Below are positions 1 through 17,786 of a stretch of 32,000 nt of DNA, piece by piece. The stretch comes from Chthonomonas sp. (lineage in GTDB: Bacteria > Armatimonadota > Fimbriimonadia > Fimbriimonadales > Fimbriimonadaceae). The stretch lies in NCBI GenBank assembly GCA_031425375.1, contig JANPJF010000006.1, positions 224,123-256,122 on the forward strand. The letters run 5' to 3'. A program made the translations under genes and the position numbers. The notes under the pieces are model-generated. The model was not told the DNA's origin. It saw nothing but the letters and a program-made list of their open reading frames with translations, and made no database searches. Position 1 is the stretch's first letter, and each line of letters begins with the position of its first letter.

Positions 1-556
1 TGACATCAACCTTGTCGCCCGGCACCGAGAACGACCGCTCGACCTGCCCCTTCATGAAGTCGGAACAAACGATCACCCGCCACGCTTCGTAGGTCAGCCA
101 ATACTCCATCTCGTGGATGTACTTTTGCATCGGCGTGAAGATGCCGCCGTTACGCCCTTCCTCGGTGGCGTGGACCGTGGCGACGACCGGAAGTTGGTAT
201 TCGTACTTCAATTCCCGCGCCGATTCGAGCGAAAGCCAGTCGTGAGCGTGGAAGATGGTCGGCTGACCGCCAGGACGCCAGTCTTCGAGCAATCGCCGGA
301 CTCTGAGGTCGGTCGCTTTATTCAGAAGCTGAATTTCATGGACAAAATTGTCCGGCTCCTTCTCCAGGTGGACACGATGGACATGGACCCCGCTCGGCTC
401 AATCTCCTCGTCAGGGGCGAGCGCGGTGTTCTTGGTCACGACATGAACCTCGATACCGAGTTTCACGAGTTCCTTGGAGAGATCGTAGACGTGGGGGCTG
501 ATTCCGCCAACAATCCGCGGAGGGTATTCCCAAGACAGCATCACCACGCGTAGCAC
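1..556 (-). CDS. Glycosyltransferase family 4 (GT-B, group 1), N-terminal ~185 aa; the C-terminus lies beyond the window edge
   Basis: My own minus-strand translation reads (V)LRVVMLSWEYPPRIVGGISPHVYDLSKELVKLGIEVHVVTKN...TIFHAHDWLSLESA...VVATVHATEEGRNGG...VIVCSDFMKGQVERSFSVPGDKVDV. The EYPP-x-x-GG and HAHDW motifs are typical of the GT4 N-domain. The ORF is missing from the track because it has no stop codon in the window. I prefer GTG at 556 over ATG at 541 because it keeps the first beta strand (RVVMLS). The track ORF 113..553 (+) is its antisense shadow. Confidence 0.75.
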   Translation of the reverse strand, partial: MLRVVMLSWEYPPRIVGGISPHVYDLSKELVKLGIEVHVVTKNTALAPDEEIEPSGVHVHRVHLEKEPDNFVHEIQLLNKATDLRVRRLLEDWRPGGQPTIFHAHDWLSLESARELKYEYQLPVVATVHATEEGRNGGIFTPMQKYIHEMEYWLTYEAWRVIVCSDFMKGQVERSFSVPGDKVDV

Positions 557-595
557 GGCTCATTTTAGCCAACTGCCGCGCCCATAATCTGGGAC
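557..595. promoter_or_regulatory. 39-bp divergent intergenic region with back-to-back -10-like hexamers (minus-strand TAAAAT at 562-567, plus-strand CATAAT at 583-588)
   Basis: TAAAAT ends 5 nt before GTG 556 on the minus strand. CATAAT ends 7 nt before ATG 596 on the plus strand. Neither start has a Shine-Dalgarno sequence and no convincing -35 is present. These are candidate leaderless promoters. Confidence 0.3.
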
Positions 596-2332
596 ATGGA
601 CGAAGCTTCAGCGAGAGTGGTGGAAACCGCGAAGCGCAAATTGGGAATGGGAGACGGGGAGGGAGCCGTGTCCTTGTTACGCGGCGCCCTTTCTCGCACC
701 CCCAATGACCCTGCGGTTAAGCTCGTGCTCGGACAAATTTTAATCGAGCTTGGAAAGCCTGCCGAGGCGATCATCGAGCTCACGGCGGCACTGGAAATCG
801 ATAAGTCTTCGGTCTCGGCGGCGTCTGCATTAGCTCTGGCGCTCCATCAAACCGGCGAGACCCTGGCCGCGCATGCGGTATTGCTTCCGTTTATCACGGC
901 TCATTTCGCCTCCTACGACGCGTATCTGAATTTTTCTCAAGTTTGTCTTGCCCTTGATCTGGGAAAGGAAGGAGCGCAGGCCGCGCGAAGGGCACTCGCT
1001 CTCGAGCCCAACTCCGCGGCGGCAGCAATAAACCTGTTTCTGTGCAACCGAACAGCAGATGACTTACAAGCGTGGCGCGAATTGTATGAAACCGCACTCG
1101 CACAGCCTGGCCTAGCTACTCTAAAGGCGGCAGCCGCGGAATCGCTCTACCTCTCCCGTCTCACCGAAGCCGAGGTAACCGCCGTCCACCAAGAGGTCGG
1201 AGACCGCCTCGCGAAGAACATCGCGCCAACTAGGCGCCACTCCGGTTCACGCGACCCGGAGCGACCTCTCAAGGTCGGATTCATTTCCCCCGACTTCCGT
1301 AGCCACCCCGTTGCGTCATTTGCGCTGAGCTTCTTAAATCATTGGAACGCTGAGCAGCTCCCTCCGACCTTTTACTCCCTGAACCCTCTGGAGGACGAGG
1401 TCACCGAGCGCTTCAAAGCGATGGGTCGTTGGCGTCCCTCGGCGGGTCAAAAGGCAACGGCGCTCGCATCGCAAATCATGGCCGACGGCATCGACGTCCT
1501 GGTTGACCTCGCGGGATACACCGTGGGCGGCAGACCGGAAATTCTCGCCATGCGCCCATCCCCAGTGGTCATATCTGCTATCGGCTACCCAGCCTCATTG
1601 CATCTGGAGCGGCTCGACGGCGAGTTCACCGATGAAATCGCTGCTCCGAGTGGCGTGACTGATTGGGTAAATCCGATCCGGCTCCCTAATCCATTCCTGT
1701 GCTACGCCCCGGTTGAGTCGATTCCCGACATTTCGGCAGCACCGAAGGAGAGCTTCCGCTGGGGAGTTGCGTGCAACGCAAAGAAGATCAACGTTGCCAG
1801 CGTCGAGCTTTGGGCATCGGTTCTTAACGCCACCCCTGGTTCGACCTTGCATTGTGGCTGCCCCGAGTTTAGTCGAGCCTCCGAGCTCGAGCGAGTGCGG
1901 CGCCTCTTCGACGAGGCAGGTGTCTCAGACCGCTGCGTTTTCTTCACCGGCGTCCGAAACTACTCACAGTATATGACTTTGTATAACTCCCTTGACACTG
2001 TGCTAGACACCTTCCCCTTCAACGGCGCGACCACGACGATGGACGCGCTTTTGATGGGGGTGCCCGTACTCAGCCTTTCCGGTGTATCGCATCGCTCGCG
2101 GGTGGGGGCATCGTTGCTCTCCGCGTTGGGCCGGCCAGATTGGGTCGCCAACACGCCGGAGTCGCTCCTAACGAAGGCCGTGAAGGTGCACAATGCCGGC
2201 AGTCCCGACCTAACTGCCCGAAAAACTCTCCGCGAACAAGTACAGAAATCCCTCCTCATGGACGGTGTCGAGTACGCGAAGAACTTTGCGCATGAGGTTC
2301 GAAATGCCTGGCACCGCTACTGTATTTCCTAG
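596..2332 (+). CDS. TPR-repeat protein fused to a GT41 (O-GlcNAc transferase / SPINDLY-like) glycosyltransferase domain, paralog 1 (most divergent)
   Basis: 578 aa. The N-terminal ~215 aa are TPR-like helices (GAVSLLRGALSRTPNDPAVKLVLGQILIELGKPAEAIIELTAALEID). The C-terminal blocks are RDPERPLKVGFISPDFRSHPV, IDVLVDLAGYTVGGRPEILAMRPSPVVISAIGYP, LDTFPFNGATTTMDALLMGVPVLSLSG and a terminal WHRYC. The usual FGSFNNxxK block is replaced by WGVACNAKK. Confidence 0.8.
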   Translation: MDEASARVVETAKRKLGMGDGEGAVSLLRGALSRTPNDPAVKLVLGQILIELGKPAEAIIELTAALEIDKSSVSAASALALALHQTGETLAAHAVLLPFITAHFASYDAYLNFSQVCLALDLGKEGAQAARRALALEPNSAAAAINLFLCNRTADDLQAWRELYETALAQPGLATLKAAAAESLYLSRLTEAEVTAVHQEVGDRLAKNIAPTRRHSGSRDPERPLKVGFISPDFRSHPVASFALSFLNHWNAEQLPPTFYSLNPLEDEVTERFKAMGRWRPSAGQKATALASQIMADGIDVLVDLAGYTVGGRPEILAMRPSPVVISAIGYPASLHLERLDGEFTDEIAAPSGVTDWVNPIRLPNPFLCYAPVESIPDISAAPKESFRWGVACNAKKINVASVELWASVLNATPGSTLHCGCPEFSRASELERVRRLFDEAGVSDRCVFFTGVRNYSQYMTLYNSLDTVLDTFPFNGATTTMDALLMGVPVLSLSGVSHRSRVGASLLSALGRPDWVANTPESLLTKAVKVHNAGSPDLTARKTLREQVQKSLLMDGVEYAKNFAHEVRNAWHRYCIS

Positions 2333-2355
2333 CCGGCCATAACGTCCACTGGCGA

Positions 2356-4122
2356 TTGGGCCAAAATAGCTCTGTGATTACCCTTGCAGACCAAGCCATC
2401 GAGCACGCGCTTCAGCTCTTCGCGAACGACCATCGCGAAAAAGCTCATGAGATGCTGGTGAAATTAGTCGAGGAAAATCCAGAAAAGGCGAAGGCGGTTC
2501 ATAGCCTCGCAATGATCCTGATGAACATGGATCGGGCGAATGAGGCTCTTCCCCACCTTCTCAAATCAATCGAACTGGAACCCAATAATTCGGTTTTCTA
2601 CTGCAATTTGGGCGCGTACTACACGCGGGTCAATGAACACGAACAATCTCTGATCGAGCTTTTCAAGGCGGTCGAAATCAACCCAAATTACACCGACGCG
2701 ATGCTGAACATCGGGCACGTGATGAGCATGTTGGGGCGATTTGATGAAGCCATCGAATGGGCCTCGAAGGCTCACGCCATCGTGCCTCAAGACGAGCAGC
2801 TCACGATGAACCTGTACACGTACCTGCGCGATCAAGATTTTGAGCGCGGGTTTAAGTTCCTCCGCGAGGCGTTGGTGAAGTATGACCGCCCCCACTTCTG
2901 GCGAGTGGTCTGCAGCGACTCTCTTTATTCAGATCAGATCAGCGAAGAGGACGTGGATGCGGTTCACTTTGAACTTGGGCAGAAAATCGCTTCCGGACTG
3001 CCCGCCACCCGCCGCTACATCAACAAAGCCGACCCGGAACGAAAAATTCGCATTGGGTTTATGTCGAGCGACTTGCGGCGCCATTCGGTGTCGTTTTTCC
3101 TCAAAGAGTGGCTCAGCAAACTCGACAAGGGTCGGTTCGAGATTTATTGCTACCTCGCCATGGGTGCGCGTGATGACATCAGCGACATGTACGAGGAGTT
3201 CTCCACGTTCAAGGTTGTACATGCCTCAAAGATCCAGTCGCTGGTGAACGTGATTTACAACGACGGAGTCGACATTCTGTTTGATCTGAATGGTCTCACC
3301 ATCGGTGGCCGACCGGACGTGCTTGCCGTCAAGCCTGCCCCGATCATCGTCTCGGCCATCGGCTACGCCCACTCCATTGGTCTTGACCGTATCGATTACC
3401 GAATCTCGGACGCAATTACCGACCCCGAGGGTAGCCAAGTTCACTACGCCGAGAAACTTGTCACCCTCGAAGGATGCTTCCTTTGCTACGGCGTGCTAGA
3501 CCCACTCCCGGATGTCGCCGAGATTGAGGACCGCCCCGTCACTTTTGGCTCGTTTAATAACCACCTGAAAATCAATCCGAGCACCGTGAAACTGTGGTCC
3601 GATGTCGTAAAAGCTAACCCGGGATCGGTGCTGGTTCTCAAGGCGCTTGGGCTTCGCCACCCACCCATCCGAAAAGCGGTGCTCGGATGGTTCGATCATG
3701 AAGGCATTGCCGACCGAGTGCGAATCTTGGAGCCGCAAGACGAAGTCGTGGCCCACCAGGCCATGTATAAGGAGATTGACATCACGCTTGACACCTTCCC
3801 CTACAATGGAACTACGACCACGATGGAATCGCTACTCATGGGCGTTCCGGTCATGACCCTTCAAGGCGACGTGCACCGAAAGCGCGTCAGCAGTTCCCTC
3901 CTCATCAACGCGGGATTCCCCGAATGGGTAGCCATGACCCAAGAAGAGTTCGTTGCGCTATCCCAAAAGATGGCCGCTGATATCAAGTCCATCCGAGCCG
4001 GACGAAAAGCCCTCCGCGCGAAGGTCTTCGCATCGCCGGTCATGGACTCCGACGCCTACTCAAAAAAGATGGCAGCGTTTATGGACAAAGCATGGCGCGA
4101 CTACTGCTCGACTAAGGCGTAA
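2356..4122 (+). CDS. TPR-repeat + GT41 (OGT/SPINDLY-like) glycosyltransferase, paralog 2
   Basis: 588 aa. TPR-like N-terminus (LEPNNSVFYCNLGAYYTRVNEHEQSLIELFKAVEINPNYTDAMLNIGHVM). GT41 blocks: DPERKIRIGFMSSDLRRHSV, VDILFDLNGLTIGGRPDVLAVKPAPIIVSAIGY, RIDYRISDAITDPEG, FGSFNNHLKINPSTVKLW, LDTFPYNGTTTTMESLLMGVPVMTL and a terminal WRDYC. The track start at 2356 is TTG, so the exact start is uncertain (in-frame GTG at 2374, and an in-frame ATG at codon 32, position 2449). Confidence 0.85.
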   Translation: MGQNSSVITLADQAIEHALQLFANDHREKAHEMLVKLVEENPEKAKAVHSLAMILMNMDRANEALPHLLKSIELEPNNSVFYCNLGAYYTRVNEHEQSLIELFKAVEINPNYTDAMLNIGHVMSMLGRFDEAIEWASKAHAIVPQDEQLTMNLYTYLRDQDFERGFKFLREALVKYDRPHFWRVVCSDSLYSDQISEEDVDAVHFELGQKIASGLPATRRYINKADPERKIRIGFMSSDLRRHSVSFFLKEWLSKLDKGRFEIYCYLAMGARDDISDMYEEFSTFKVVHASKIQSLVNVIYNDGVDILFDLNGLTIGGRPDVLAVKPAPIIVSAIGYAHSIGLDRIDYRISDAITDPEGSQVHYAEKLVTLEGCFLCYGVLDPLPDVAEIEDRPVTFGSFNNHLKINPSTVKLWSDVVKANPGSVLVLKALGLRHPPIRKAVLGWFDHEGIADRVRILEPQDEVVAHQAMYKEIDITLDTFPYNGTTTTMESLLMGVPVMTLQGDVHRKRVSSSLLINAGFPEWVAMTQEEFVALSQKMAADIKSIRAGRKALRAKVFASPVMDSDAYSKKMAAFMDKAWRDYCSTKA

Positions 4123-4128
4123 TCCAGA

Positions 4129-5919
4129 ATGGCGCAGCTCCCCCAGGAAGATTCTTCGTCGATGCAAAAAGTGCAGCGGCTAATGCTTTTAGGAGACTTT
4201 GCCGGGGCCATAATCCAGTGCGATAAGCTCGTTGAGGCGCATCCAGACGACGTTGTTCTTTTGCTCTTTCGGGCTAGGATTGCCGATCAGGCTCAGCACA
4301 CGGCTTATGCGGAAATCTTCTTTCGACGCGCAGCGACCGCGAGCACCCTTTCCCCGCTCGGGCACCGCCACTTGGCTGCATGGCTGCAGTCTCAGGGCCG
4401 GTCAAATGATGTCCTCGCGGCGGTTGATGATGGGCTAAAGCTCTTTCCCGATGACCTTCCGCTGCTGTCTATAGGGTTCAGAGCCGGAGCAAACGACGAC
4501 AACATAGCTTCCGCAATTCAGCGTCTGGAGGAACTCATACTCACTGAAGATGATGCGCAGGTGCTCTCGGATACGCTAAACCTGCTCAGCCCACTGTTCC
4601 AATCATTCGGAGAATCTGCATTCGTTGAGCGGTTGATCGGGCGCCTCGTTGAAATCGAACCCGCGAGTATTGACAACCGTCGGTGCCAAGCCTTCACGTC
4701 GCTTTACAACGATGCACTAGATCCAACAGATTTGGCGAAAATTCACTTTGAGTTTGGACAAATGGTCGAGGCCAGCATCGCGCCAAAATGGCCCCAGTTC
4801 TCCAACAATCGAAATGCGGATCGCAAGTTGCGGATCGGCTACCTCTCGCCAGATTTCAGAGCCCATGTCGTCGCAAACTTCAATCTGGGTTGGATAGAGA
4901 TGCACGATCCAGATGAAGTTGAAGTAACACTGTACATAGGAAACGCCCCCGACACGGTGACCGAGCGATTCATTGCCGCGTCAGAAAAGCACCGTTTCAT
5001 AAGAGACCTCTCCCCGATCGCAGTTGCGGAGAAAATCAAATCCGATAAGATCGACATCCTCGTTGACTTTGCGGGTCACACAACCGGTAGCTTGACTGCA
5101 ATGCTGGCCTTACGACCCGCTCCGGTCCAGGTGTCCTATGTTGGCTATGCCGCTACGACGGGTCTCTCGCGAATCGACTATCGCATTGTTGATGGCATCA
5201 CCGATCCTGAGGGAGCGGAGGAGCTGGCTAGTGAACGCCTATACCGCCTCGACCGGTGTTTCCTCGGGTACAAGCGGATCACCGAGTTGCCAGCACTAAG
5301 TAGCGCCTTACCTGACGTTCCTACCGCCGGGACGTTCAACAATCTCATTAAGGTATCCGACAGCACCCTCCGCGCCTGGGCAAGGATTCACCAATTGCAC
5401 CCAGAAGCACACCTCATCACCAAATGCCACCTCCCCACCTCTGAACCCCTGAGGCTCTTCAAATTGGCCAAGATGCGCGAAGTTTTAGAGAGGGCTGGGG
5501 GGGATCCTGACCGATTCGATTTGCTACCGTTCATCCTCAGTTATGAAGAGAGCCAACTTGCGTATGGTCAGTTAGACATCGCGTTAGACCCATTCCCATA
5601 CAACGGTACGACGACGACCTTCGAAGCTCTATCTATGGGCATCCCAGTTGTAACCTTACTGGGAACGGACCACCGCTCGAGGGTGAGTGCCAGTATCCTA
5701 GAGCATGTCGGCCTAAACCAATGGATTGCGAATTCGGTCGAAGAGTACGCCGAAATCGCGGCAGACTTGCTCAACAACCGAAAAGAGATTCTTGAGAAGC
5801 GCCCTGCGCTACGGGACTTGCTCCTCCAATCCGATCCCTGCAACCTTTCGGCGCATGTGACAGCTCTTGAGGATGCGTACCGCACCATGTGGCGGGACTA
5901 CTGCGAGGCTAAGGCGTAA
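4129..5919 (+). CDS. TPR-repeat + GT41 (OGT/SPINDLY-like) glycosyltransferase, paralog 3
   Basis: 596 aa. ATG lies 6 nt after the stop of paralog 2. Blocks: ADRKLRIGYLSPDFRAHVV, IDILVDFAGHTTGSLTAMLALRPAPVQVSYVGY, RIDYRIVDGITDPEG, AGTFNNLIKVSD, LDPFPYNGTTTTFEALSMGIPVVTL and a terminal WRDYC. Confidence 0.85.
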   Translation: MAQLPQEDSSSMQKVQRLMLLGDFAGAIIQCDKLVEAHPDDVVLLLFRARIADQAQHTAYAEIFFRRAATASTLSPLGHRHLAAWLQSQGRSNDVLAAVDDGLKLFPDDLPLLSIGFRAGANDDNIASAIQRLEELILTEDDAQVLSDTLNLLSPLFQSFGESAFVERLIGRLVEIEPASIDNRRCQAFTSLYNDALDPTDLAKIHFEFGQMVEASIAPKWPQFSNNRNADRKLRIGYLSPDFRAHVVANFNLGWIEMHDPDEVEVTLYIGNAPDTVTERFIAASEKHRFIRDLSPIAVAEKIKSDKIDILVDFAGHTTGSLTAMLALRPAPVQVSYVGYAATTGLSRIDYRIVDGITDPEGAEELASERLYRLDRCFLGYKRITELPALSSALPDVPTAGTFNNLIKVSDSTLRAWARIHQLHPEAHLITKCHLPTSEPLRLFKLAKMREVLERAGGDPDRFDLLPFILSYEESQLAYGQLDIALDPFPYNGTTTTFEALSMGIPVVTLLGTDHRSRVSASILEHVGLNQWIANSVEEYAEIAADLLNNRKEILEKRPALRDLLLQSDPCNLSAHVTALEDAYRTMWRDYCEAKA

Positions 5920-7673
5920 TGGTTCCATTAGCGGCGTTGATGCGCCTTGTTCAGAGTTCCGGAGTTTTCGCGGCTGCAAAAGAAAGTAGTAGAGAGTTTG
6001 AAGCGGGACGGTCCGATAGGGACTTTTTGCAACTGCATGCAAAGTTGTTAGAGGCAACGGGACGGCGACCTGAAGCTATTGATATCTGCCTTCAGCTTGT
6101 TTCGTCACACCCCCACGACGCGACCCTGATCTCCGAACTAGGTGTACTCTACGAGAATTCCGGCAACTATGAGGCCGCTCTGGAACTCCATGAAAGGGCT
6201 GTCAAAGTCGAACCAACGTCCCAGCGACACGACCTCGCAGTTAGACGGTGTCAAGTTCACTTAAAGGACTTCTTTTCCGGGCTCGATGCGCTCATCGCTG
6301 CAGCAGAGGGCTGTCCAGACGACAGCGTATGCTATGAGAACTTCTACGCCGCAATGCACTTCGCCAAATCGGTTGGCGATCTTCCCAGAGCGACGCAGGT
6401 GGCCAAGCACTTGCAGACGCGGTTTGCACGAAACACGATAGCCGAGCTGCTGCTCCCGGTGCTGGCTTTGTACAGTGAAGAGGAGACCGGAGAGAGTCTT
6501 GATCTCCATCATACGACGTCCATGAAAACCCTGGACCCACGCACTCCATTCGGTCGAGGTACGTACAACTTAAATCAAAATCCAGATCGTGACCTGCGAG
6601 TCGGGTTTATCAGCGCCGATTTTCGGCGACATTCAGTGGCGCACTTCGTGCAAGCTTTGTTATCGCATTCCTCAGACTCGCGTCTACGCGTGATGGCATA
6701 TATGGTTGGCACCGCAGATGACGTCACGCCATCCCTCGTGGGCGCCGCTGACCGCGCCAGGATCTTTGAAGTTACGGATGTAACTCGCATTTGTGCGCAA
6801 ATTCGGGCTGACAAAATTGATGTTTTAGTTGACCTTTCGGGACCGACTTCAGCCACCATCGTCGAAATCATGCTCCGCTCGCCGGCCCCTGTTCAGATAA
6901 GTATGATTGGCTACCCCCACCACTTTGGTTCAGATCGAGTGCCTTATCACGTATCGGACTCGATTGCTGACCAATCAGCTTCGGTAGGGCGCGCCATGAA
7001 ACTGCGGATGAATCGCTGCTTTCTAAACTATGTCCCGTTGGAAGGTCAACCGCCCAGCCCCATTCCGTTGAAGCAGGCGTTCGGCAGTCTAAACAACCCG
7101 TTGAAGCTGGAGCCGAGCGTCCTCGCTGCATGGAGTCAAATCCTGGGGCAGTGTCCTCACGCAAGCTTAATCCTGAAAGGCGCCAGTTACTTTGGAGAAA
7201 GCTACCGACGTGCAGGAGCGAAACGTCTGCATGAGAGCTTCGCTCGACTGGGGGTCGACCCTGAAAGGATCATCGTTCAGGATTACACTCGTGATCATGC
7301 TGAACCATTTGAAACCTATCGCGAAATCTCGGTTGCCCTTGACCCGTTTCCGTATAACGGAACAACGACTACTCTAGAGGCACTCGCCGCCGGTGTACCT
7401 GTCGTGACGCTAGAAGGGCATGATCACAGGAGTCGGGTAGGAGTCAGCGTTCTTTCCCACCTCGGAAAAAGTGAGTGGGTCACGCCAAACATCGAGGGTT
7501 ATGTACAAACCGCCGTGCGTCTGATGGAGGACACCCAGACCCTCTCGCAGATTCGGGAAGATCTTCCAAGTCAGCTAAGGAAGAGCCAAATAATGGATGG
7601 GGCCAGCTATCGAGCTGAGTTCGAGAATCTAGTCCGTCAAGCATGGACTACTTGGTGCGAGAACTCTGACTAG
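5919..7673 (+). CDS. TPR-repeat + GT41 (OGT/SPINDLY-like) glycosyltransferase, paralog 4
   Basis: 584 aa. The start overlaps the stop of paralog 3 (TAATG). TPR-like N-terminus (ISELGVLYENSGNYEAALELHERAVKVEP). Blocks: PDRDLRVGFISADFRRHSV, IDVLVDLSGPTSATIVEIMLRSPAPVQISMIGYP, FGSLNNPLKLEP, LDPFPYNGTTTTLEALAAGVPVVTL and a terminal WTTWC. Confidence 0.85.
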   Translation: MVPLAALMRLVQSSGVFAAAKESSREFEAGRSDRDFLQLHAKLLEATGRRPEAIDICLQLVSSHPHDATLISELGVLYENSGNYEAALELHERAVKVEPTSQRHDLAVRRCQVHLKDFFSGLDALIAAAEGCPDDSVCYENFYAAMHFAKSVGDLPRATQVAKHLQTRFARNTIAELLLPVLALYSEEETGESLDLHHTTSMKTLDPRTPFGRGTYNLNQNPDRDLRVGFISADFRRHSVAHFVQALLSHSSDSRLRVMAYMVGTADDVTPSLVGAADRARIFEVTDVTRICAQIRADKIDVLVDLSGPTSATIVEIMLRSPAPVQISMIGYPHHFGSDRVPYHVSDSIADQSASVGRAMKLRMNRCFLNYVPLEGQPPSPIPLKQAFGSLNNPLKLEPSVLAAWSQILGQCPHASLILKGASYFGESYRRAGAKRLHESFARLGVDPERIIVQDYTRDHAEPFETYREISVALDPFPYNGTTTTLEALAAGVPVVTLEGHDHRSRVGVSVLSHLGKSEWVTPNIEGYVQTAVRLMEDTQTLSQIREDLPSQLRKSQIMDGASYRAEFENLVRQAWTTWCENSD

Positions 7674-8605
7674 TCCAGATAGTCCAACTCTTTAAGCATC
7701 CGAGGGTTCTGCCGCCACTCGGTTCGAACCTTCACAAATAATTCCAGGAAGACCGGTTTGCCCACGATCGCTTCAATCTCGGCCCGAGCCTCGGTGCCGA
7801 TGCGCTTGAGCATCTCCCCGCGCTTGCCGATGAGGATCGCTTTCTGACCATCCTTTTCGACCACCAGAGAAACCAGAATTCGCACAACGTTTGGCTCATC
7901 GGTCCAGTCGTCAACGATTGCGGCTAAGGCGTGAGGAACCTCTTCCCGAGTCAGGCGCAAGGCCTTCTCCCGAACCAATTCCGAGGCTAGACGACGCATC
8001 GGTTGATCGGTCACTTCGTCTTCCGGGTAAAGCATCGGGCCTTCCGGCAAGTGCTCCAGGATCATTTCGACGAGCTTGTCCACGTTGCGAGTCTTAGTGA
8101 GGCTCGTCATCATGATTCGGTCGGTGCCGAACAGCTTCCCGAACCGCTCGTAATGATCTTGAACATCCACCGCTCGCAAAAGGTCCATCTTGTTCAGACA
8201 GAGGATCACATTCGGCTTTGCCTTCCCATCCGCCTCAATCCAATTCTGCTGACGCAGCATCTCGGCGAGGGCTTCCTCGTCCTTATCCGGCTTGCGGGAG
8301 GCGTCCACCATCACGATGAGAGCATCGGCTCCATCCATGCTCCCCTGTGCCGTCTCATTCAGGATCTTGCCAAGGTGGGTGTGAGCCTTATGAACACCCG
8401 GCGTGTCAATCAAGATGAGTTGATAGTCGGCCTCCGTGACAATGCCCAACATACGGTGACGGGTGGTCTGCGCTTTGTCGCTGACAATACTCACCTTCTG
8501 ACCCACCAGAAGGTTGGTCAGCGTGCTCTTGCCAGTGTTCGGCTTGCCAACGAGCGCGACCATTCCGCTGCGGAACGGCTTAGTCTCGTTTTCTAAAGAC
8601 AACAT
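7670..8605 (-). CDS. era: GTPase Era
   Basis: 311 aa. FRSGMVALVGKPNTGKSTLTNLLVGQKVSIVSDKAQTTRHR (G1 and G2), LIDTPG (G3), LNKMDL (G4), and a C-terminal KH-like region (ILVSLVVEKDGQKAILIGKRGEMLKRIG). A GGAG lies 4 nt upstream of the ATG, inside the upstream gene. Confidence 0.95.
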   Translation of the reverse strand: MLSLENETKPFRSGMVALVGKPNTGKSTLTNLLVGQKVSIVSDKAQTTRHRMLGIVTEADYQLILIDTPGVHKAHTHLGKILNETAQGSMDGADALIVMVDASRKPDKDEEALAEMLRQQNWIEADGKAKPNVILCLNKMDLLRAVDVQDHYERFGKLFGTDRIMMTSLTKTRNVDKLVEMILEHLPEGPMLYPEDEVTDQPMRRLASELVREKALRLTREEVPHALAAIVDDWTDEPNVVRILVSLVVEKDGQKAILIGKRGEMLKRIGTEARAEIEAIVGKPVFLELFVKVRTEWRQNPRMLKELDYLD

Positions 8606-11600
8606 TCATCTCCGAGATATCAAAATCGCTGGTCGCGGCTGGCTTGCGGTCGCTTGATCCATCCGGGCGTCGCCCCCGCCGCCGACGGCCCCGATGCCTC
8701 TCGCGGCGCTCGTCTGCGCTCGCATCCGTGGACTCCTCGGCCTCAGTGGCCTGCTCTTCCATCACCGAGGGTCGGAAGACAAGGTCAGTGGCCATCTCTT
8801 CGGTCCAGCCCTCTTCCACCCAATCGTCCACCTTCATGATCGCCACGTCAAAGTGGATGTCGTCTGGGTGGACCGTGTTCTCGGGCCGTTCTGGGAGCTC
8901 GTCGACCTTCAACAGGTCTTCGGACGGGACCTTCAGAATGGCCTCAATCTCGCTCTTCAAACCAATCAAGAACGATTGGGTCTGACCGTCAATTGCGGCA
9001 AACCTAAACTGAGCGCCCTCAATCGTGGCCCACTCTTCGCGCTGCAGATTGTAAGCCGCCGCCTTATCTGGAAGGGCCAAAGTACGAGATCCGCTTCCGT
9101 TGCAATGCAACGTGACGAACGGCGCCCTAGCATGGACCAAGTCTTCGTGGTAATTCCAGACGTGGGCTCCTGCCATTTGGCCGAGCGCACGGAAGAATCC
9201 TGGAGTCACCACCGGCTCACCCAGGAAGACACTCTTCCAAGACTGACCAGGGCTTTCGCCTTTAAACTCTCGCATAACGAAGCTCGGCAATCCGGTCGCG
9301 GAGTACTCGCCAAGCACAATGCCGTCTTCGGGAATCGCGAAGTAGCTGGGCTCGAGTTCGCCGCCGCTGCTGAGCATCTTCTCGGGAAGCGGCTCGCAAA
9401 GCGGATGCTTCTTGTGGACGATATGGGTTCCGCTTCGGCTCGCGAATGGCTGCCGCTTCAAGGCGATGCCGGTCACTTCGCGTACTCGCTCCAGAGCATC
9501 TCGACCTGCGTCAAAGAGACCCGCCGCGTACATCCAGAACAACACCTTGTTGTCGCGCTGGAGGCGCGTCTTAATCGCGCTTCGCACTTCGGGCCGAATG
9601 TCCCACGCATTCAAAAATACGTAAACTTTCGCCTCAGGGAACTGCTCCCGATGGGCTAGGTCGCTCAGAAGATAAAAGCCAGCACTCAGACCTGATCGGA
9701 GGATGGATTCGCGGACATTCTGCACCAACAACGCAAATGCCTTTTGATCCACCAAATACGCCAACGAACGCTCGTCAATGAACACCGCCACATCTGGATC
9801 GCCGAGAGGTACGGCCATGCGATTGACGAGAGCCTTGCGAATCTGAGCCGCACGATCCCAAATTCCGGTTGATTTAAGCCATCCATTGCCCCAGAGGTCC
9901 ATCCAGCAGATGCCTCCAGCGTGGGCCGCCGCCGCTCCGTAACCACGCCAGTGCACTGTTTCAAGAGACTGGGGCGTTTTCATCACCGGGTTGAAATCGT
10001 CCGGCTCGTGCTTCGCCGTGATCGGAGTCTTGAAGTCTTCTTCGCTGATGTACAATTTGCCATTCAGCGCAAAGCTGTCAATCGGCCCAGGGAACGGACA
10101 GGTCCCGCCCGGCTCGCGATTCTTGTAGCTCGGCGGCCCCGCGATGAAGTCCACCTCAGGATTGCGTAAGAGCTTGCCGAGAGAAAGGTGACCACTGGCT
10201 GGATGACTCCACTCGAAGGTGTAGCCATAGCTAACCCCCACGAGGAAATAACCATCACTTGCCTTCTTAGCGACATGGGCGAGCTTGCCGATGCGCTCCA
10301 CCGTGATGTCACTGAGGAACAGGTGGTAATCCACCCACCGGCGGGCTTTCCGTCCCGTCCGAACGAACTCTTCCCCGCTGCGGGTTTCTCCTCGGTATTC
10401 GGGCACGCTGAGCGTCTCGAACTGGGCTTGTCCGTCAAACCAACTGGCGCACAGGGCCACGTTGTCGTTGCGGTAGCGCATTCGAACCCACTCGCGAAAT
10501 TCCAATTGGGCCGCTGGCGACGTGTCGTAGCCCCATCCGGCAGCGAAGAACCACTCTCCGCGCTCTAAATGAACGCCCATCACGTGCTCGCGGTTCGGCA
10601 ACAGGCGCATCTTCGCGACGAAGTCCTCAAGGCAGTGCTCGGCATCGCCCCAGAAGATGTCATCGCAAACACTGGGGTCTCCAAGGCCGCCGCTCTCTGC
10701 GACGTACTTCGCCTTCGGATAGACAGTTTCCCATCCTTGCGCCGCCGTAAACACGACGCGGAATAAGACTTGAGCGTCGGGAGCGACTTCTAGGGACTTG
10801 TTCAACAAGTAGGCGGCGAACTGCACCGATGCGTCGGCGTCGCCATCTCGGTTGACCTCGAGGTCAACGTAGTGAACGATGACTCCAATGCCGGACTCAC
10901 TCGCGTACTTGATCTCCTCAAGCACCGTTTCCATGCGCTTTTCGTCGGAAGCGTTGCCAAAGAAGAAGATGGGCGGGAAGACCTTGCCGTCTCGAACTAG
11001 TGTAGGATTGCCGTCGCGCAGGAACACTTGCGGGGCATCAGAAGGAATCTTGACGTACTCCCTCGGAGCGACAACCGGGGGCTCTGGTTTGACCGGGGCC
11101 GGCTTGGCTCTGGGCTCGCGAACTTGAACCGCCGGGGCATCATTTTCGCTAGTCAGAAGGTCTTTTCGGCCTCGGTTTCGATTACGATCTCGATCTCGGC
11201 CGCGGGCCGGTCGATCCGTCACGACAGCAGACTCTTCGGAGTCTTGATCAACTTCCTCCTGGGCCGCAGGAACGACGCCGCGAGCGCGGAACATAGGGAC
11301 GGGCACAGATTCACCCGCTTCAAGTTCCATCGTCATGAGGTCGGGAACGGCTCGCTCGGTTCGATCAACGGCAGGCTGGGCCTCGTTGCGACGCGGACGC
11401 GCGGGCCTATATTCCGGTGTCGGAGTGGACTGCTGTTCAGATTCCTGTTTGCGCGGTCGGCCGCGACCACGCGTAGGCTGCGCTTCTACCGGCGCAGGCT
11501 CCTTTCGAGGTCGTCCTCGCCCACGCTTTGGCTCGTTTACGGCGGCCTCGTCCACGGGTTTCCGTGGTCGTCCTGGTCCACGCTTTGGAGCTTCCGGGTC

Positions 11601-11780: not shown

Positions 11781-12472
11781 GGTTCTTTCTTTAAAATTGT
11801 CTGTTCGACCCAGGTTTCTAGGTCGGAGGGGGTGAGTACTAATTCGTTTGGTTTAGATTCGGCGAGAGCCGACTCGGACATCGCGCCATAGGCGACCGCC
11901 ACGGAGAAGGCTCCGGCAGCGTGCGCACTCTCAACATCGTGGATCGCGTCCCCGATGAAGCAAACTTCTGCGGCGTGAACACCGAGCAATTCGCAAGCGC
12001 GGAGAACTGGCTCTGCATGCGGCTTCGGGTGCGTGACATCCGATGCAGACACCGTAACCTGAGCACCTTGAAACTGAGGAAATTCACCTAAAATCCAGGT
12101 GAGTTCGTCTCGGTTTCGACTGGTAACCAGGCCACACGGAATCCCCGCATCAATTACCGCCCGAAATGCCCGCTCGGCAGGCTCCAAGGCGATAATTTTG
12201 TCGGAATGGGCAACGTAACGATCCATCGTGTACCGGACTCTTGACTGAAGGGTCGTCTCAGTGGAGCTGTCCATCCCAAACATCATCATCTGGGCGGAAA
12301 GGGGGGTGCCGATCAGAGACTTGATAAATACATCATCGGGACGGTTGCCGGTGAAGTGCTCGAAAGCATCTCCGAGTCCAGCAACGATCATTGGAATCGT
12401 GTTGACGAGCGTGCCATCTAAATCAAACAAAACGGCGCGAAACTCTCGCGTCTGTAACGTGCACTCCATCAA
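11744..12472 (-). CDS. HAD-IA family hydrolase (phosphoglycolate phosphatase / PpaX-like)
   Basis: 242 aa. Motif I is AVLFDLDGTLVNT. It also has a LVTSRNR Ser/Thr motif and a C-terminal FIGDAIHDVESAHAAG motif. The stop lies 37 nt inside the downstream AT-hook ORF. Confidence 0.85.
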   Translation of the reverse strand: MMECTLQTREFRAVLFDLDGTLVNTIPMIVAGLGDAFEHFTGNRPDDVFIKSLIGTPLSAQMMMFGMDSSTETTLQSRVRYTMDRYVAHSDKIIALEPAERAFRAVIDAGIPCGLVTSRNRDELTWILGEFPQFQGAQVTVSASDVTHPKPHAEPVLRACELLGVHAAEVCFIGDAIHDVESAHAAGAFSVAVAYGAMSESALAESKPNELVLTPSDLETWVEQTILKKEPCYSTIQNVSSP

Positions 12473-14220: not shown

Positions 14221-14223
14221 CCC

Positions 14224-14856: not shown

Positions 14857-14901
14857 AATCGTTGAACTCAACTCCAACGTCATCAACACGGAACACGACC
14901 C

Positions 14902-15276: not shown

Positions 15277-15287
15277 ACCCTCGGATC

Positions 15288-15313
15288 GGTTTGTTTTTGA
15301 ACTCAAACAAACC
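15288..15313 (+). other. Perfect 9-bp stem hairpin (GGTTTGTTT, 8-nt loop, AAACAAACC) 12 nt after the TIGR02530-type gene stop
   Basis: Read directly from the sequence. The stem is AT-rich and no U-tract follows, so it may be a weak attenuator or processing site rather than a strong terminator. Confidence 0.3.
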
Positions 15314-17742: not shown

Positions 17743-17786
17743 GCCCTACATTGTTGCATATTTATTGCATTAAGCCACCAAGTCCC

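What the first reader, a model, noticed from the sequence alone, without database searches (positions are those of the whole stretch)
596..7673. Array of four tandem, translationally coupled TPR + GT41 (OGT/SPINDLY-like) glycosyltransferase paralogs
Four consecutive same-strand ORFs of 578, 588, 596 and 584 aa share one architecture. Each has a ~220-aa N-terminal TPR-like helical region, and these regions are essentially unalignable between paralogs. Each also has a ~360-aa C-terminal domain with shared blocks: DPER-x-(L/I)(K/R)(V/I)GF(I/M)S-x-D(F/L)R-x-H, D(V/I)L(V/F)D(L/F)-x-G-x-T, RP(A/S)P(V/I), FGSFNN-x-x-K, LD(P/T)FP(Y/F)NG(T/A)TTT and a terminal W-x-x-(Y/W)-C. By eye these blocks align with the catalytic lobes of human OGT: SSDFGNHP with His498, NFNQLYK with Lys842, and LDTPLCNGHTT. 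They also fit the ~570-aa Xanthomonas XcOGT architecture. All four keep the His and a Lys in the equivalent blocks. Intergenic distances are 23, 6 and -1 nt, so this is one operon. In TPR-GT enzymes the TPR moiety selects the protein substrate. Conserved chemistry combined with four unrelated TPR domains therefore suggests a dedicated multi-substrate, or sequentially acting, cytoplasmic protein O-glycosylation system. A GT4 gene is divergently paired with the array, and a flagellar hook operon lies 5 kb downstream. TPR + GT-B enzymes such as Caulobacter FlmG modify flagellins. Flagellins (not in this window) or the pseudopilin-like proteins are therefore plausible targets, but this is speculation. 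I am not aware of a characterised four-gene OGT array. Paralog 2 also looks more AT-rich than paralog 1 by eye, which needs computing.
Basis: partly seen in the sequence, partly recalled or inferred. Interest (0 to 1): 0.75.

Follow-up and report, generated by a model that had tools for sequence, protein, structure and literature searches.

The report
Variable array of SPINDLY-like protein glycosyltransferases
Four neighbouring genes in an uncultured Armatimonadota bacterium encode relatives of the plant sugar-adding enzyme SPINDLY (not of animal OGT); one is a conserved core gene and three are fast-changing extras that come and go between close relatives, an uncharacterised but genomically common arrangement.

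Summary
Four same-strand ORFs (578, 588/582, 596 and 584 aa; gaps 23 or 41, 6 and -1 nt) all match Pfam GT41 and carry N-terminal TPR-like helices. A GT4 gene is divergent, and a hook operon lies 4.9 kb downstream.

The interpretation needs four corrections.

1. All four proteins are closer to Arabidopsis SPINDLY, a GDP-fucose protein O-fucosyltransferase, than to OGT or XcOGT. None has the OGT donor triad (L866/R904/C917). G2-G4 carry SPY-type Lys689 and Tyr744.
2. The chemistry is not uniform. Base-contacting residues differ in each paralog, and G1 has a distinct pocket that its orthologs share.
3. The array is not a fixed unit. Relatives carry 1, 2 or 3 genes at the same GT4|…|era site. G2 is the core gene (dN/dS 0.014). 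G1 and G3 evolve about ten times faster. G4 has no relative above 34% identity among 5.8 billion proteins, has the lowest GC3 in the window, and lies on a 1,754-bp indel bounded inside the conserved 3' tails.
4. Tandem GT41 arrays are common: 27 of 79 loci from other species hold two or more, and runs reach eight.

Targets remain unknown. Flagellins and pilins are precedent-based guesses. I rate this a new member of a known kind, of moderate interest.

The parts
1..541 (-). 5' part (180 codons) of a divergently transcribed GT4 glycosyltransferase resembling GlgM, glycogen synthase and sucrose-phosphate synthase. It is the conserved left flank of the array.
   Evidence: Translation. The full 463-aa protein comes from L008, which is 100% identical to the window. 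Best NCBIfam match is TIGR02149 glgA_Coryne (E 3.5e-45, below cut-off). Best PDB matches are 6kih (Tll1590), GlgM 6tvp and Pyrococcus GlgA. It is 79-98% identical in all relatives and has dN/dS 0.016.
542..595 (.). 54-bp divergent intergenic region between GT4 and G1. It is the presumed bidirectional promoter region.
   Evidence: Coordinates. The sigma-70 consensus scan found nothing here, which is uninformative for this phylum. The promoter role is inferred.
596..2332 (+). G1: accessory TPR + GT41 paralog with a divergent donor pocket. TPR-like region is about nt 596-1210; the catalytic domain starts at DPER, nt 1253.
   Evidence: PF13844 E 3e-33. SPY is the best PDB match, 3e-53. Pocket residues are C661/G689/Y728/L731/F744/A747/D752 in SPY numbering. 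C661, Y728, F744, A747 and D752 are shared by the G1 orthologs in L006 and L003. Identity to the L006 ortholog is 83% with dN/dS 0.154. G1 is absent from L001, L002 and L005.
2356..4122 (+). G2: the conserved core TPR + GT41 enzyme. The likely true start is GTG at 2374, giving 582 aa. The catalytic domain starts at nt 3031.
   Evidence: PF13844 E 1e-46. Orthologs at 59-97% identity occur in every close relative next to the GT4 gene. dN/dS is 0.014, equal to era and GT4. AF2 model has pLDDT 94.2; the top fold match is SPY 7y4i, TMq 0.90. Donor residues are K689/H728/M731/Y744/E752. Asn is kept at all three panel-consensus TPR Asn columns.
4129..5919 (+). G3: accessory TPR-like + GT41 paralog. 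The catalytic domain starts at nt 4813.
   Evidence: PF13844 E 4e-41. Only two orthologs were found, at 92% (L006) and 61% (L007). dN/dS is 0.124. AF2 model has pLDDT 93.2, with 12 N-terminal helices followed by a GT-B fold; top fold match is SPY, TMq 0.82. The triad K689/A731/Y744 matches SPY exactly, but H728 is Ser. None of the three consensus Asn columns is kept.
5919..7673 (+). G4: genome-specific TPR + GT41 paralog. Its start overlaps the G3 stop (TAATG). The catalytic domain starts at nt 6579.
   Evidence: PF13844 E 5e-35. Apart from its own genome (100%), the best of 5.8 billion proteins is 34% identical. GC3 is 0.552, the lowest in the window. SPY is the best PDB match, 1e-71. Donor residues are K689/P728/T731/Y744/E752.
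5897..7650 (+). 1,754-bp segment, the G4 cassette plus a replaced G3 tail, that is absent from the closest relative.
   Evidence: L006 is 87-89% identical by blastn and collinear over window 1-5896 and 7651-12420, with nothing in between. G3 in L006 and L007 ends WCENP(V/D)*, like window G4 (WCENSD*). Window G3 ends DYCEAKA*, like G2 (DYCSTKA*).
7670..8605 (-). era GTPase gene, the conserved right flank. It is convergent, and its stop overlaps the G4 stop by 4 nt.
   Evidence: Pfam MMR_HSR1 + KH_2. It sits in the same position in L001-L003, L006 and L009.

Best explanation
**What it is.** The locus is a copy-number-variable tandem array of soluble, SPINDLY-like (GT41, GT-B fold) protein glycosyltransferases. 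It belongs to an uncultured bacterium whose nearest assemblies are labelled Chthonomonas sp. (Armatimonadota).

**Expression (inferred).** The four genes are probably transcribed together from the 54-bp region shared with the divergent GT4 gene. They appear translationally coupled. The G2 and G3 tails end in AAGGCGTAA, an SD-like sequence for the next gene. The G3 stop overlaps the G4 start as TAATG.

**Catalysis (inferred from SPY and OGT).** Each protein has about 12 N-terminal helices forming TPR-like hairpins. These are expected to present an acceptor polypeptide to the C-terminal catalytic cleft. There the invariant Lys (SPY K665 = hOGT K842) and the T-T loop hold the diphosphate of a nucleotide sugar, and the sugar is transferred to Ser or Thr.

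**Roles of the four genes.**
- G2 is the ancestral core enzyme. It is under housekeeping-level constraint, keeps the three consensus TPR Asn positions, and has a SPY-type pocket.
- G1, G3 and G4 are accessory cassettes. They were gained or lost by recombination within the conserved 3' tails, evolve fast but remain under purifying selection, and have altered both the TPR surface and the base-binding residues.
- I therefore expect them to extend the system to further acceptors, other sugars, or both.

**Donor (inferred).** For G2-G4 the donor is probably a GDP-linked small hexose or 6-deoxyhexose such as GDP-fucose, not UDP-GlcNAc. G1 probably uses a different donor.

**Acceptors.** These are unknown. 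Filament subunits (flagellins, type IV pilin-like proteins) are the best guesses by precedent.
For: - Family and fold: PF13844 in all four. SPY is the best PDB sequence match for all four. AF2 models of G2 and G3 (pLDDT 94 and 93) superpose best on SPY, TMq 0.80-0.90.
- Donor residues: the triad that separates SPY (K689/A731/Y744) from hOGT (L866/R904/C917) is defined in PMC10027727 and PMC9715652. G2 has K/M/Y, G3 K/A/Y, G4 K/T/Y and G1 G/L/F. K665, T748 and T749 are invariant.
- Variable array: relatives carry [G2] (L001, L002, L005), [G1][G2] (L003), [G1][G2][G3] (L006), at least [G2][G3] on the cut contig L007, or two other GT41 genes (L009) at the same GT4|…|era site.
- Selection: dN/dS is 0.014 for G2, 0.154 for G1 and 0.124 for G3, against 0.016 for era.
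- G4: it is an orphan with outlier GC3, on an indel whose ends lie in the conserved tails.
- Acceptor surface: Asn at the three panel-consensus TPR columns is kept 3/3 in G2, 2/3 in G1, 1/3 in G4 and 0/3 in G3.
- Precedents for filament targets: S. elongatus Ogt, a TPR + GT41 enzyme next to pilA, is required for PilA glycosylation (PMC9306852). FlmG, a TPR + GT-B enzyme, glycosylates flagellins through its TPR domain (PMC7591256). Elsewhere GT41 arrays sit next to pilin genes (L083) or flagellin genes (L029).
Against: - No activity, donor or acceptor has been measured for these proteins or for any bacterial SPY-like enzyme that I could find.
- The triad rule was derived mainly from eukaryotic SPY and OGT. 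Prokaryotic 'intermediate' proteins show mixed patterns. The stacking His728 is kept only in G2.
- S. elongatus Ogt is reported to use UDP-GlcNAc, so residue-based donor calls may fail in bacteria.
- Co-transcription is inferred from spacing only. The promoter and terminator scans were uninformative.
- No flagellin gene, pilin operon or nucleotide-sugar pathway lies in the 32 kb. Flagellar synteny is confined to a subclade and is interrupted by era, the 1066-aa gene and HAD on the other strand.
- The direction of the G4 indel (gain vs loss) rests on parsimony over three genomes.
Confidence: 0.75

Rival explanations
1. These are true O-GlcNAc transferases (OGT/SEC/XcOGT type) that use UDP-GlcNAc.
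For: They belong to the same Pfam family and share the TPR + GT-B architecture. Many database homologs are named 'protein O-GlcNAc transferase'. S. elongatus Ogt hydrolyses UDP-GlcNAc, and PilA there reacts with a GlcNAc lectin.
Against: - None of the four has Leu, Arg or Cys at the three OGT-defining positions.
- All have a bulky aromatic residue at the C917 position. That residue clashes with the N-acetyl group in SPY.
- SPY beats hOGT by 15-40 orders of magnitude in E-value and by fold for G2 and G3.
- TtOGT and XcOGT, which also have Tyr at this position, showed no or almost no O-GlcNAc activity.
- The database names are automatic.
Confidence: 0.12
2. The array is a dedicated flagellin glycosylation system, functionally like FlmG. 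Each paralog would serve a different flagellin or add a different sugar before export.
For: - In this genome the array lies between flgB-flgC-fliE-fliF (upstream, from L008) and fliK-flgD-flgE (downstream).
- The same block adjoins the flagellar operon in L001-L003.
- FlmG has the same TPR + GT-B layout and binds flagellins through its TPR domain.
- L029, L050 and L066 have flagellin genes within 10 kb of GT41 genes.
Against: - No flagellin gene and no flagellin-type sugar pathway (pseudaminic or legionaminic acid) lies in the 32 kb.
- Unrelated housekeeping genes on the opposite strand separate the array from the hook operon.
- In L004, L005 and L009 the orthologous or equivalent genes have no flagellar neighbours.
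- Only 3 of 79 GT41 loci elsewhere had flagellin genes nearby.
- Homology to FlmG itself could not be tested.
Confidence: 0.2
3. The targets are type IV pilin-like or pseudopilin (N-methyl/DUF1559) proteins, as with cyanobacterial Ogt/OgtA and PilA. The expansion of GT41 genes would track the large pseudopilin families of this lineage.
For: - S. elongatus Ogt and N. punctiforme OgtA are needed for PilA glycosylation or stability, and ogt lies next to pilA.
- The 8-gene GT41 array in L083 directly follows two pilin genes.
- 5 of 79 GT41 loci had a prepilin-motif gene within 10 kb.
- The window encodes an N_methyl/DUF1559 protein at 27638-28564.
Against: The nearest such gene is 20 kb away and unlinked. 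There is no pilus assembly operon nearby. The association in other genomes is modest and rests on a crude motif scan.
Confidence: 0.15
4. G1, G3 and G4 are redundant or decaying duplicates, or pseudoenzymes, with no distinct function. Only G2 matters.
For: dN/dS for G1 and G3 is about ten times that of G2. They are dispensable in relatives. G1, G3 and G4 have lost the stacking His728, and G1 has lost K689, Y744 and N661.
Against: - All are intact full-length ORFs, and dN/dS of 0.12-0.15 still indicates purifying selection.
- The essential Lys, the T-T loop and the H495-equivalent His are invariant.
- The unusual G1 pocket is conserved down to 51% identity, which argues for specialisation rather than drift.
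- The G3 model is confidently folded, pLDDT 93.
- The coupling signals are maintained.
Confidence: 0.1
5. The GT41 enzymes work with the adjacent GT4 on a non-protein glycan such as an alpha-glucan or exopolysaccharide. The divergent pair would then be one pathway.
For: GT4 next to GT41 is the only adjacency kept in every relative, including L005 and L009 where the other neighbours differ.
Against: - All characterised GT41 members act on proteins.
- GT4 is near-invariant (79-98% identity, dN/dS 0.016), while the GT41 complement changes completely; L009 has no G2 ortholog.
- No polysaccharide export or polymerase genes are present in the window.
- The adjacency may simply be inherited synteny within one lineage.
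Confidence: 0.05

Closest known systems
Arabidopsis SPINDLY (SPY), a GT41 nucleocytoplasmic protein O-fucosyltransferase (PDB 7y4i, 8dtf-8dti)
   Same: SPY is the best sequence match for all four proteins (E 3e-53 to 1e-76) and the best fold match for G2 and G3 (TMq 0.80-0.90). Both have N-terminal TPRs and a GT-B catalytic domain with no intervening domain. G2-G4 have K665, T748/T749, H495, Y744, K689 and E752.
   Different: - About 5-6 TPR-like hairpins instead of 11.
- Only about 28% identity.
- A731 is kept only in G3 and H728 only in G2.
- G1 lacks K689, Y744, N661, T747 and E752.
- The proteins are bacterial, and they are encoded as a variable tandem array rather than a single gene.
- Fucosyltransferase activity is untested.
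Bacterial TPR-GT41 proteins with structures: Thermobaculum terrenum TtOGT (5djs) and Xanthomonas campestris XcOGT (2jlb)
   Same: Similar size (520-570 aa), short TPR + GT41 architecture and an aromatic residue at the hOGT C917 position. TtOGT is the second-best PDB family for G3 and G4 (E 1e-47 to 1e-56).
   Different: XcOGT is a much weaker match (E 1e-22 to 3e-38), and its active site is described as OGT-like. Neither has an established physiological substrate.
Cyanobacterial Ogt/OgtA (Synechococcus elongatus Synpcc7942_0051; Nostoc punctiforme OgtA)
   Same: Cytoplasmic TPR + GT41 enzyme with an essential catalytic Lys. It has a genetic link to a surface filament subunit, PilA.
   Different: It is a single gene next to pilA and is reported to use UDP-GlcNAc. 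No pilin gene adjoins the array in this window. Sequences were not compared directly.
Caulobacter crescentus FlmG flagellin O-glycosyltransferase
   Same: About 600 aa, with an N-terminal TPR domain that binds the acceptor and a C-terminal GT-B transferase domain. It is cytoplasmic and lies in a flagellar context.
   Different: It transfers pseudaminic acid. Its CAZy family and its homology to these proteins were not tested. No flagellin or Pse genes are present in this window.
Tandem GT41 arrays in other genomes (e.g. L083 Burkholderiales MAG, 8 genes; L075 Planctomycetia MAG, 4 in tandem and 6 in total)
   Same: Same-strand, tightly packed runs of TPR-GT41 paralogs. Of 79 sampled loci, 27 have two or more GT41 genes within 10 kb.
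   Different: They occur in other phyla with other neighbours (pilins, YfhO and GT2 in L083). None has been studied experimentally, as far as the literature searches showed.

Membership tests
CAZy GT41 / Pfam PF13844 (Glyco_transf_41) | Significant profile match covering both catalytic lobes | tested here: met
   All four score 115-160 bits against a cut-off of 25, with two stretches each spanning the N- and C-lobes.
CAZy GT41 / Pfam PF13844 (Glyco_transf_41) | GT-B two-lobe fold that superposes on solved GT41 structures | tested here: met
   G2 and G3 AF2 models (pLDDT 94.2 and 93.2) match SPY at TMq 0.80-0.90, hOGT at about 0.70 and XcOGT at about 0.70. G1 and G4 were not modelled.
CAZy GT41 / Pfam PF13844 (Glyco_transf_41) | Essential diphosphate-binding Lys (hOGT K842 = SPY K665) and Thr-Thr loop (hOGT T921/T922) | tested here: met
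   K, T and T are invariant in G1-G4. In the 60-sequence panel the Lys and first Thr are invariant and the second Thr is kept in 59 of 60.
CAZy GT41 / Pfam PF13844 (Glyco_transf_41) | Glycosyl transfer to a protein acceptor | not testable with these tools
   This needs enzyme assays or glycoproteomics.
OGT/SEC-like clan (UDP-GlcNAc:protein O-GlcNAc transferases) | Donor triad L866 / R904 / C917 (hOGT numbering; PMC10027727) | tested here: not met
   G1 has G/L/F, G2 K/M/Y, G3 K/A/Y and G4 K/T/Y. None has Arg at 904 or Cys at 917.
OGT/SEC-like clan (UDP-GlcNAc:protein O-GlcNAc transferases) | Closer to OGT than to SPY by sequence and by structure | tested here: not met
   SPY E-values are 3e-53 to 1e-76 against 1e-61 to 6e-32 for hOGT. 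For G2 and G3, TMq is 0.80-0.90 against 0.70.
SPY-like clan (GDP-fucose:protein O-fucosyltransferases) | K689 (guanine contact) and Y744 (fucose contact; excludes GlcNAc) | tested here: met
   Met in G2, G3 and G4 (K and Y). Not met in G1 (G and F), and the G1 orthologs have G or M together with F.
SPY-like clan (GDP-fucose:protein O-fucosyltransferases) | A731 (small residue that makes room for K689) and stacking H728 | tested here: inconclusive
   Position 731 is Ala only in G3 (M in G2, T in G4, L in G1). Position 728 is His only in G2 (S in G3, P in G4, Y in G1). No paralog has all five of K689, H728, A731, Y744 and E752.
SPY-like clan (GDP-fucose:protein O-fucosyltransferases) | GDP-fucose-dependent O-fucosylation activity, and a GDP-fucose pathway in the genome | not testable with these tools
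   No gmd/fcl genes are in the 32-kb window.
FlmG-type flagellin O-glycosyltransferases | N-terminal TPR plus C-terminal GT-B architecture | tested here: met
   compared with the description in PMC7591256.
FlmG-type flagellin O-glycosyltransferases | Sequence homology to FlmG, and linkage to flagellin or nonulosonic-acid genes | not tested
   No FlmG sequence was available to the tools. No flagellin or Pse/Leg genes are in the window; only hook, rod and MS-ring genes are nearby.
HMW1C-like N-glycosyltransferases (GT41 NGT) | Match to NCBIfam NF049992 above its cut-off, with an all-alpha AAD domain instead of TPRs | tested here: not met
   Scores are 20-46 bits against a cut-off of 1000, and TPRs are present.

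The most novel reading that the evidence does not exclude
The GT4|…|era site may be a cassette-exchange hotspot at which whole TPR-GT41 genes are swapped by recombination through their conserved W-x-x-(Y/W)-C-coding tails. The tails also carry the ribosome-binding site for the next gene.

Under this reading each cassette pairs its own acceptor-binding TPR surface with its own nucleotide-sugar pocket. Strains would then differ in a combinatorial cytoplasmic O-glycosylation code, for example on flagellar or pilin-like filament proteins. G2-G4 would be the first bacterial GDP-sugar (fucose-type) protein O-glycosyltransferases.
Probability: 0.15. Interest if true: 0.65.

Novelty: new member of a known kind. 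Interest (0 to 1): 0.4.

Why it matters
Bacterial SPY-like GT41 enzymes are very numerous. Thousands of homologs were found here, mostly auto-named 'O-GlcNAc transferase', yet almost none has a known donor or substrate.

This locus offers a natural comparison set within one lineage:
- a strongly constrained core enzyme (G2);
- three accessory paralogs whose acceptor surfaces and donor pockets have both diverged;
- relatives that carry 1, 2 or 3 of the genes.

That makes it a convenient system for testing whether the SPY/OGT donor triad predicts sugar specificity in bacteria. It could also show how TPR changes retarget a protein glycosyltransferase.

The result also cautions against reading 'OGT' annotations as evidence of O-GlcNAc signalling in bacteria. 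The genomic pattern itself, a tandem GT41 array, is common and not surprising.

Tried and rejected
- **Anti-phage defence reading of the variable array.** There were no PADLOC hits for G1-G4, the 1066-aa neighbour or GT4.
- **The conserved 1066-aa neighbour as an OGA-like 'eraser'.** It has no Pfam, NCBIfam or PDB match even at permissive thresholds. Only AT-hook-like repeats were seen. The idea is dropped as unsupported.
- **Promoter and terminator scan of 1-8800.** It found 1 promoter-like site against 3.7 expected and 10 terminator-like sites against 8.0 expected, with none at gene boundaries. This gives no information for or against an operon.
- **Recent in-situ duplication as the origin of the array.** This is rejected. 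The paralogs are as distant from each other (33-36%) as from GT41 proteins of other phyla (up to 41-45% over the catalytic domain). An NJ tree without bootstrap puts them on long separate branches, loosely grouped as (G1,G2) and (G3,G4,L009a/b).
- **HGT signal from the G1 vs G2 GC difference.** This is rejected. The difference is at codon position 2, not GC3.
- **Literature link between FlmG and GT41/SPY.** No paper in the library holds both terms, and no characterised bacterial SPY-type O-fucosyltransferase was found.
- **Motif-based count of pilin and flagellin genes near GT41 loci.** The count (5 and 3 of 79) is crude. The regex missed the window's own N_methyl gene, so I treat it only as a hint.

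Full report
**1. What is in the sequence**

All are on the + strand, with gaps of 23, 6 and -1 nt. I call them G1 to G4.

Each matches Pfam Glyco_transf_41 (PF13844) far above its cut-off, at 115-160 bits against 25, in two stretches that cover both catalytic lobes. Each also matches TPR models in the first ~200 residues, although G3 matches only TPR_14.

Pairwise BLAST gives 33-36% identity over the ~365-aa C-terminal domains (E 1e-65 to 1e-85). The N-terminal halves give weak matches (G1/G2 22% over 190 aa, E 1e-9; G2/G4 E 0.006) or no match.

A profile of the catalytic domain finds exactly four such ORFs in the 32 kb.

On the minus strand, a GT4 gene starts at 541 and runs off the window. 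The flanks downstream are as follows:
- era (7670-8605, minus strand), whose stop overlaps the G4 stop by 4 nt;
- a 1066-aa protein with no recognisable domain;
- a HAD hydrolase;
- fliK-flgD-flgE, starting at 12571.

**2. Details that needed correction**

- **G2 start.** G2 orthologs are 581-585 aa and align from residue 7 of the window ORF. This includes one genome where no GT41 gene lies upstream. The start is therefore more likely GTG at 2374, which makes the G1-G2 gap 41 nt.
- **The 'FGSFNN-x-x-K' block.** It is literal only in G2. G1 reads WGVACNAKK, and only the second Asn and the Lys are invariant.
- **The conserved His.** The His in S-x-D-(F/L)-R-x-H is not the equivalent of hOGT His498. 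The HMMER alignment to SPY places this motif at SPY D491…H495. Zhu et al. equate SPY D491/H495 with hOGT D554/H558, and hOGT H498 with SPY L439 (PMC9715652). At the H498 position G2 has Ser. The His is still functionally relevant, because SPY H495A and H495F are inactive.
- **GC content.** G1 is more GC-rich than G2 (0.590 vs 0.542). GC3 is the same (0.661 vs 0.681); the difference is at codon position 2 (0.478 vs 0.357), which reflects amino-acid composition. The true compositional outlier is G4, with GC3 0.552. The 21 other genes average 0.669 +/- 0.053 with a minimum of 0.580.

**3. These proteins are SPINDLY-like, not OGT-like**

Against all PDB sequences, the best hit for every paralog is Arabidopsis SPINDLY.

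| Paralog | SPY E-value | human OGT E-value |
|---|---|---|
| G1 | 3e-53 | 4e-37 |
| G2 | 2e-76 | 2e-61 |
| G3 | 2e-76 | 4e-36 |
| G4 | 1e-71 | 6e-32 |

XcOGT scores only 1e-22 to 3e-38.

AlphaFold models of G2 (pLDDT 94.2) and G3 (pLDDT 93.2) show about 12 N-terminal helices followed by a GT-B domain with no intervening domain. They superpose best on SPY, with TM-score 0.80-0.90 normalised to the query. Human OGT gives about 0.70 and XcOGT 0.68-0.73.

SPY is a GDP-fucose protein O-fucosyltransferase. Kumar et al. (PMC10027727) identify three residues that separate SPY-like from OGT/SEC-like enzymes:
- K689 contacts guanine, where hOGT has L866.
- A731 replaces hOGT R904, which reads uracil.
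- Y744 hydrogen-bonds fucose and clashes with an N-acetyl group, where hOGT has C917.

Zhu et al. reach the same conclusion for Y744.

I mapped these positions through the SPY alignment, a 60-sequence alignment and an ortholog alignment.

| Paralog | 689 | 731 | 744 | 728 (stacking His) | Other changes |
|---|---|---|---|---|---|
| G2 | K | M | Y | H | none |
| G3 | K | A | Y | S | none |
| G4 | K | T | Y | P | none |
| G1 | G | L | F | Y | C661, A747, D752 |

The diphosphate ligands K665, T748 and T749 are invariant. No paralog has the OGT pattern.

Within the 60-sequence panel, K689 occurs in 57 sequences, Y744 in 59 and H728 in 52. G1 is the only sequence with C661, G689, Y728 or F744.

These substitutions are not decay. 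The G1 orthologs at 83% and 51% identity share C661, Y728, F744, A747 and D752. The G3 orthologs share S728 and A731.

So the catalytic core (Lys, T-T loop, His495) is conserved, but the part of the pocket that reads the nucleotide base and the sugar differs from paralog to paralog. This contradicts the 'conserved chemistry, variable TPR' picture. I infer a GDP-linked small sugar for G2-G4 and something different for G1. This is inference only, for two reasons. Prokaryotic 'intermediate' GT41s show mixed triads. The cyanobacterial Ogt is reported to use UDP-GlcNAc.

**4. The acceptor side also diverges**

In the 60-sequence panel, three N-terminal TPR columns carry Asn in 32, 36 and 41 of 60 sequences. 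I take these to be the Asn ladder that Kumar et al. describe as tethering the acceptor peptide in SPY.

| Paralog | Residues at the three Asn columns |
|---|---|
| G2 | N/N/N |
| G1 | A/N/N |
| G4 | E/A/N |
| G3 | H/I/L |

The G3 N-terminal region is nevertheless a confidently predicted stack of paired helices.

**5. The array is not a fixed four-gene system**

Exact-protein look-ups and a genome scan recovered the same site in relatives. The nearest assemblies are labelled 'Chthonomonas sp.' MAGs and belong to Armatimonadota. The site is bounded by the near-invariant GT4 gene and by era.

| Locus | Content at the GT4\|…\|era site | Note |
|---|---|---|
| L001/L002, L005 | [G2] | G2 orthologs at 74% and 59% identity; L005 has a different right flank |
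| L003 | [G1][G2] | |
| L006 = L010 | [G1][G2][G3] | closest relative, 87-89% DNA identity |
| L007 | at least [G2][G3] | contig cut on the left |
| Window (= L008, 100%) | [G1][G2][G3][G4] | |
| L009 | two other GT41 genes | more distant relative; only 34-38% identical to G3/G4; no G2 ortholog |

Window vs L006 comparison:

| Gene | aa identity | dN/dS |
|---|---|---|
| era | 98% | 0.016 |
| GT4 | 98% | 0.016 |
| 1066-aa protein | 97% | 0.029 |
| G2 | 97% | 0.014 |
| G3 | 91-92% | 0.124 |
| G1 | 83-84% | 0.154 |

G2 is therefore a core gene under housekeeping-level constraint. G1 and G3 are accessory genes, roughly ten times less constrained but still clearly under purifying selection. Their TPR halves evolve slightly faster than their catalytic halves.

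G4 is found only in this genome. Its next-best match among 5.8 billion proteins is 34% identical.

The paralogs are as far from one another as from GT41s of other phyla, which reach 41-45% identity over the catalytic domain. An NJ tree without bootstrap places them on long separate branches. The array is therefore not a recent local duplication.

**6. How cassettes are gained or lost**

Window and L006 are collinear over window 1-5896 and again over 7651-12420. The 1,754 bp in between (5897-7650) are missing from L006. Both breakpoints lie inside the conserved C-terminal tail that encodes W-x-x-(Y/W)-C.

- In L006 and L007, G3 ends WCENP(V/D)* and abuts era.
- In the window, that tail (WCENSD*) sits on G4.
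- G3 in the window has instead acquired a G2-type tail, DYCEAKA* (compare G2, DYCSTKA*).

By parsimony over L006 and L007, G4 was inserted. It arrived together with the 3' tail of a G2-like upstream gene, by recombination through the short conserved tail sequences. Two independent deletions are the alternative.

Tails that precede another GT41 gene end in …K-(G)A*. The codons are AAGG(C/G)…TAA, an SD-like sequence 5-11 nt before the next start. G2 orthologs that are last in their array have Gln (CAAGCG) or other residues at that point. The TAATG overlap at G3/G4 and the 6-nt G2/G3 gap fit translational coupling. Co-transcription itself is inferred from spacing only, because the promoter and terminator scans were uninformative.

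**7. How unusual is a tandem GT41 array?**

It is not unusual. The genome scan returned 79 GT41 loci from other species. Within +/-10 kb:
- 27 held two or more GT41 ORFs;
- 19 held a same-strand tandem pair;
- L075 (a Planctomycetia MAG) held four in a row, six in total;
- L083 (a Burkholderiales MAG) held eight in a row.

The protein hit lists also show several pairs of homologs sharing a longest-contig length. No paper in the searched library describes such arrays functionally.

**8. What the enzymes act on**

Nothing in the window identifies the acceptors.

*Flagellar context.* The context is real but weak. In this genome the array lies between flgB-flgC-fliE-fliF (upstream, seen in L008) and fliK-flgD-flgE. 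The same block adjoins the flagellar operon in L001-L003. However, three opposite-strand genes with no evident flagellar role intervene. L004, L005 and L009 lack flagellar neighbours. No flagellin gene or flagellin-type sugar pathway is present.

*Precedents.* They exist for both filament types.
- FlmG, a TPR + GT-B enzyme, glycosylates Caulobacter flagellins through its TPR domain (PMC7591256).
- The TPR-GT41 Ogt of S. elongatus is encoded next to pilA and is required for PilA glycosylation (PMC9306852).
- In the sampled loci, the 8-gene array of L083 directly follows two type IV pilin genes. It is followed by YfhO, GT2 and methyltransferase genes.
- L029 has three GT41 genes beside two flagellin genes.
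- A crude motif scan found pilin-like genes near 5 of 79 GT41 loci and flagellin genes near 3 of 79.

*The GT4 partner.* Its adjacency to GT41 is the only one kept in every relative. Its best matches are GlgM, glycogen synthase and a Thermosynechococcus GT4 (Tll1590, PDB 6kih). It is almost invariant, while the GT41 complement turns over completely. I therefore read this adjacency as inherited synteny or a shared promoter region rather than a shared pathway.

**9. Verdict**

- The family assignment (GT41 with TPRs) is secure.
- The 'OGT/XcOGT' label should be replaced by 'SPY-like'.
- The four genes are best seen as one conserved core enzyme plus three accessory cassettes at a recombination-prone site. 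Both acceptor and donor determinants have diverged.
- Donor identity (GDP-sugar for G2-G4) and acceptors (filament subunits or other proteins) are inferences that need biochemistry.
- The kind of system, a bacterial SPY-like TPR-GT41 in tandem arrays, is already abundant in genomes although uncharacterised. I rate this a new member of a known kind with moderate interest.

Noticed in passing
window 8580-11780 (-): A 1066-aa protein has no Pfam, NCBIfam, PDB or PADLOC match. Its N-terminus carries 4-5 AT-hook-like 'KRG(P/R)GRPRK' repeats (aa ~45-112) and its C-terminus is Arg-rich. In relatives it always follows era, and a HAD hydrolase follows it in the window, L006 and L009 (57-97% identity).
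   Followed up: partly
L008 1-2040 and window 12571-16811: The flagellar cluster is split in this genome. flgB-flgC-fliE-fliF lie on the minus strand about 1.2 kb beyond the far end of the GT4 gene. In relatives L001-L003, fliK-flgD-flgE-flgB-flgC-fliE-fliF are contiguous. A rearrangement has therefore left the GT4/GT41 block embedded in the flagellar region.
   Followed up: partly
window 4096-4122 and 5893-5919; L006, L007, L001, L003: GT41 genes followed by another GT41 gene end in …K-(G)A* (AAGG(C/G)…TAA), which doubles as an SD-like sequence for the next gene. G2 orthologs that are last in their array lack it (Gln, CAAGCG, in L001; other tails in L003 and L005).
   Followed up: partly
L083 1432-21072 (Burkholderiales MAG JACZJT010000047.1): Eight tandem TPR-GT41 genes directly follow two type IV pilin genes. 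They are followed by YfhO-family membrane protein, GT2 and methyltransferase genes. This looks like a candidate pilin glycosylation island.
   Followed up: partly
L029 901-15917 (Gammaproteobacteria MAG WFPC01000025.1): Three GT41 genes lie next to two flagellin genes that carry the SSGLRINSAKDDAAG motif. This looks like a candidate flagellin glycosylation island that uses GT41 enzymes.
   Followed up: no
window 7670-7673: The convergent genes G4 and era overlap by 4 nt at their stop codons. The same overlap exists between G3 and era in L006.
   Followed up: no
window 1-541 (-) and L008 3232-4623: The GT4 enzyme has a ~75-aa C-terminal extension beyond the GT-B domain. It is unusually conserved (79-98% identity) compared with era (63-98%) across the same genomes.
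   Followed up: no
window 27638-28564 (+): A prepilin-type N-methylation motif protein with a weak DUF1559 match, typical of the large pseudopilin-like families of Armatimonadota and Planctomycetota. It is conserved in position in L001-L003.
   Followed up: no
window 17311-17742 (-) / 17667-18458 (+): The MerC-family ORF and the class II aldolase ORF overlap by 76 nt at their 5' ends as listed. One start codon is probably called too far upstream.
   Followed up: no
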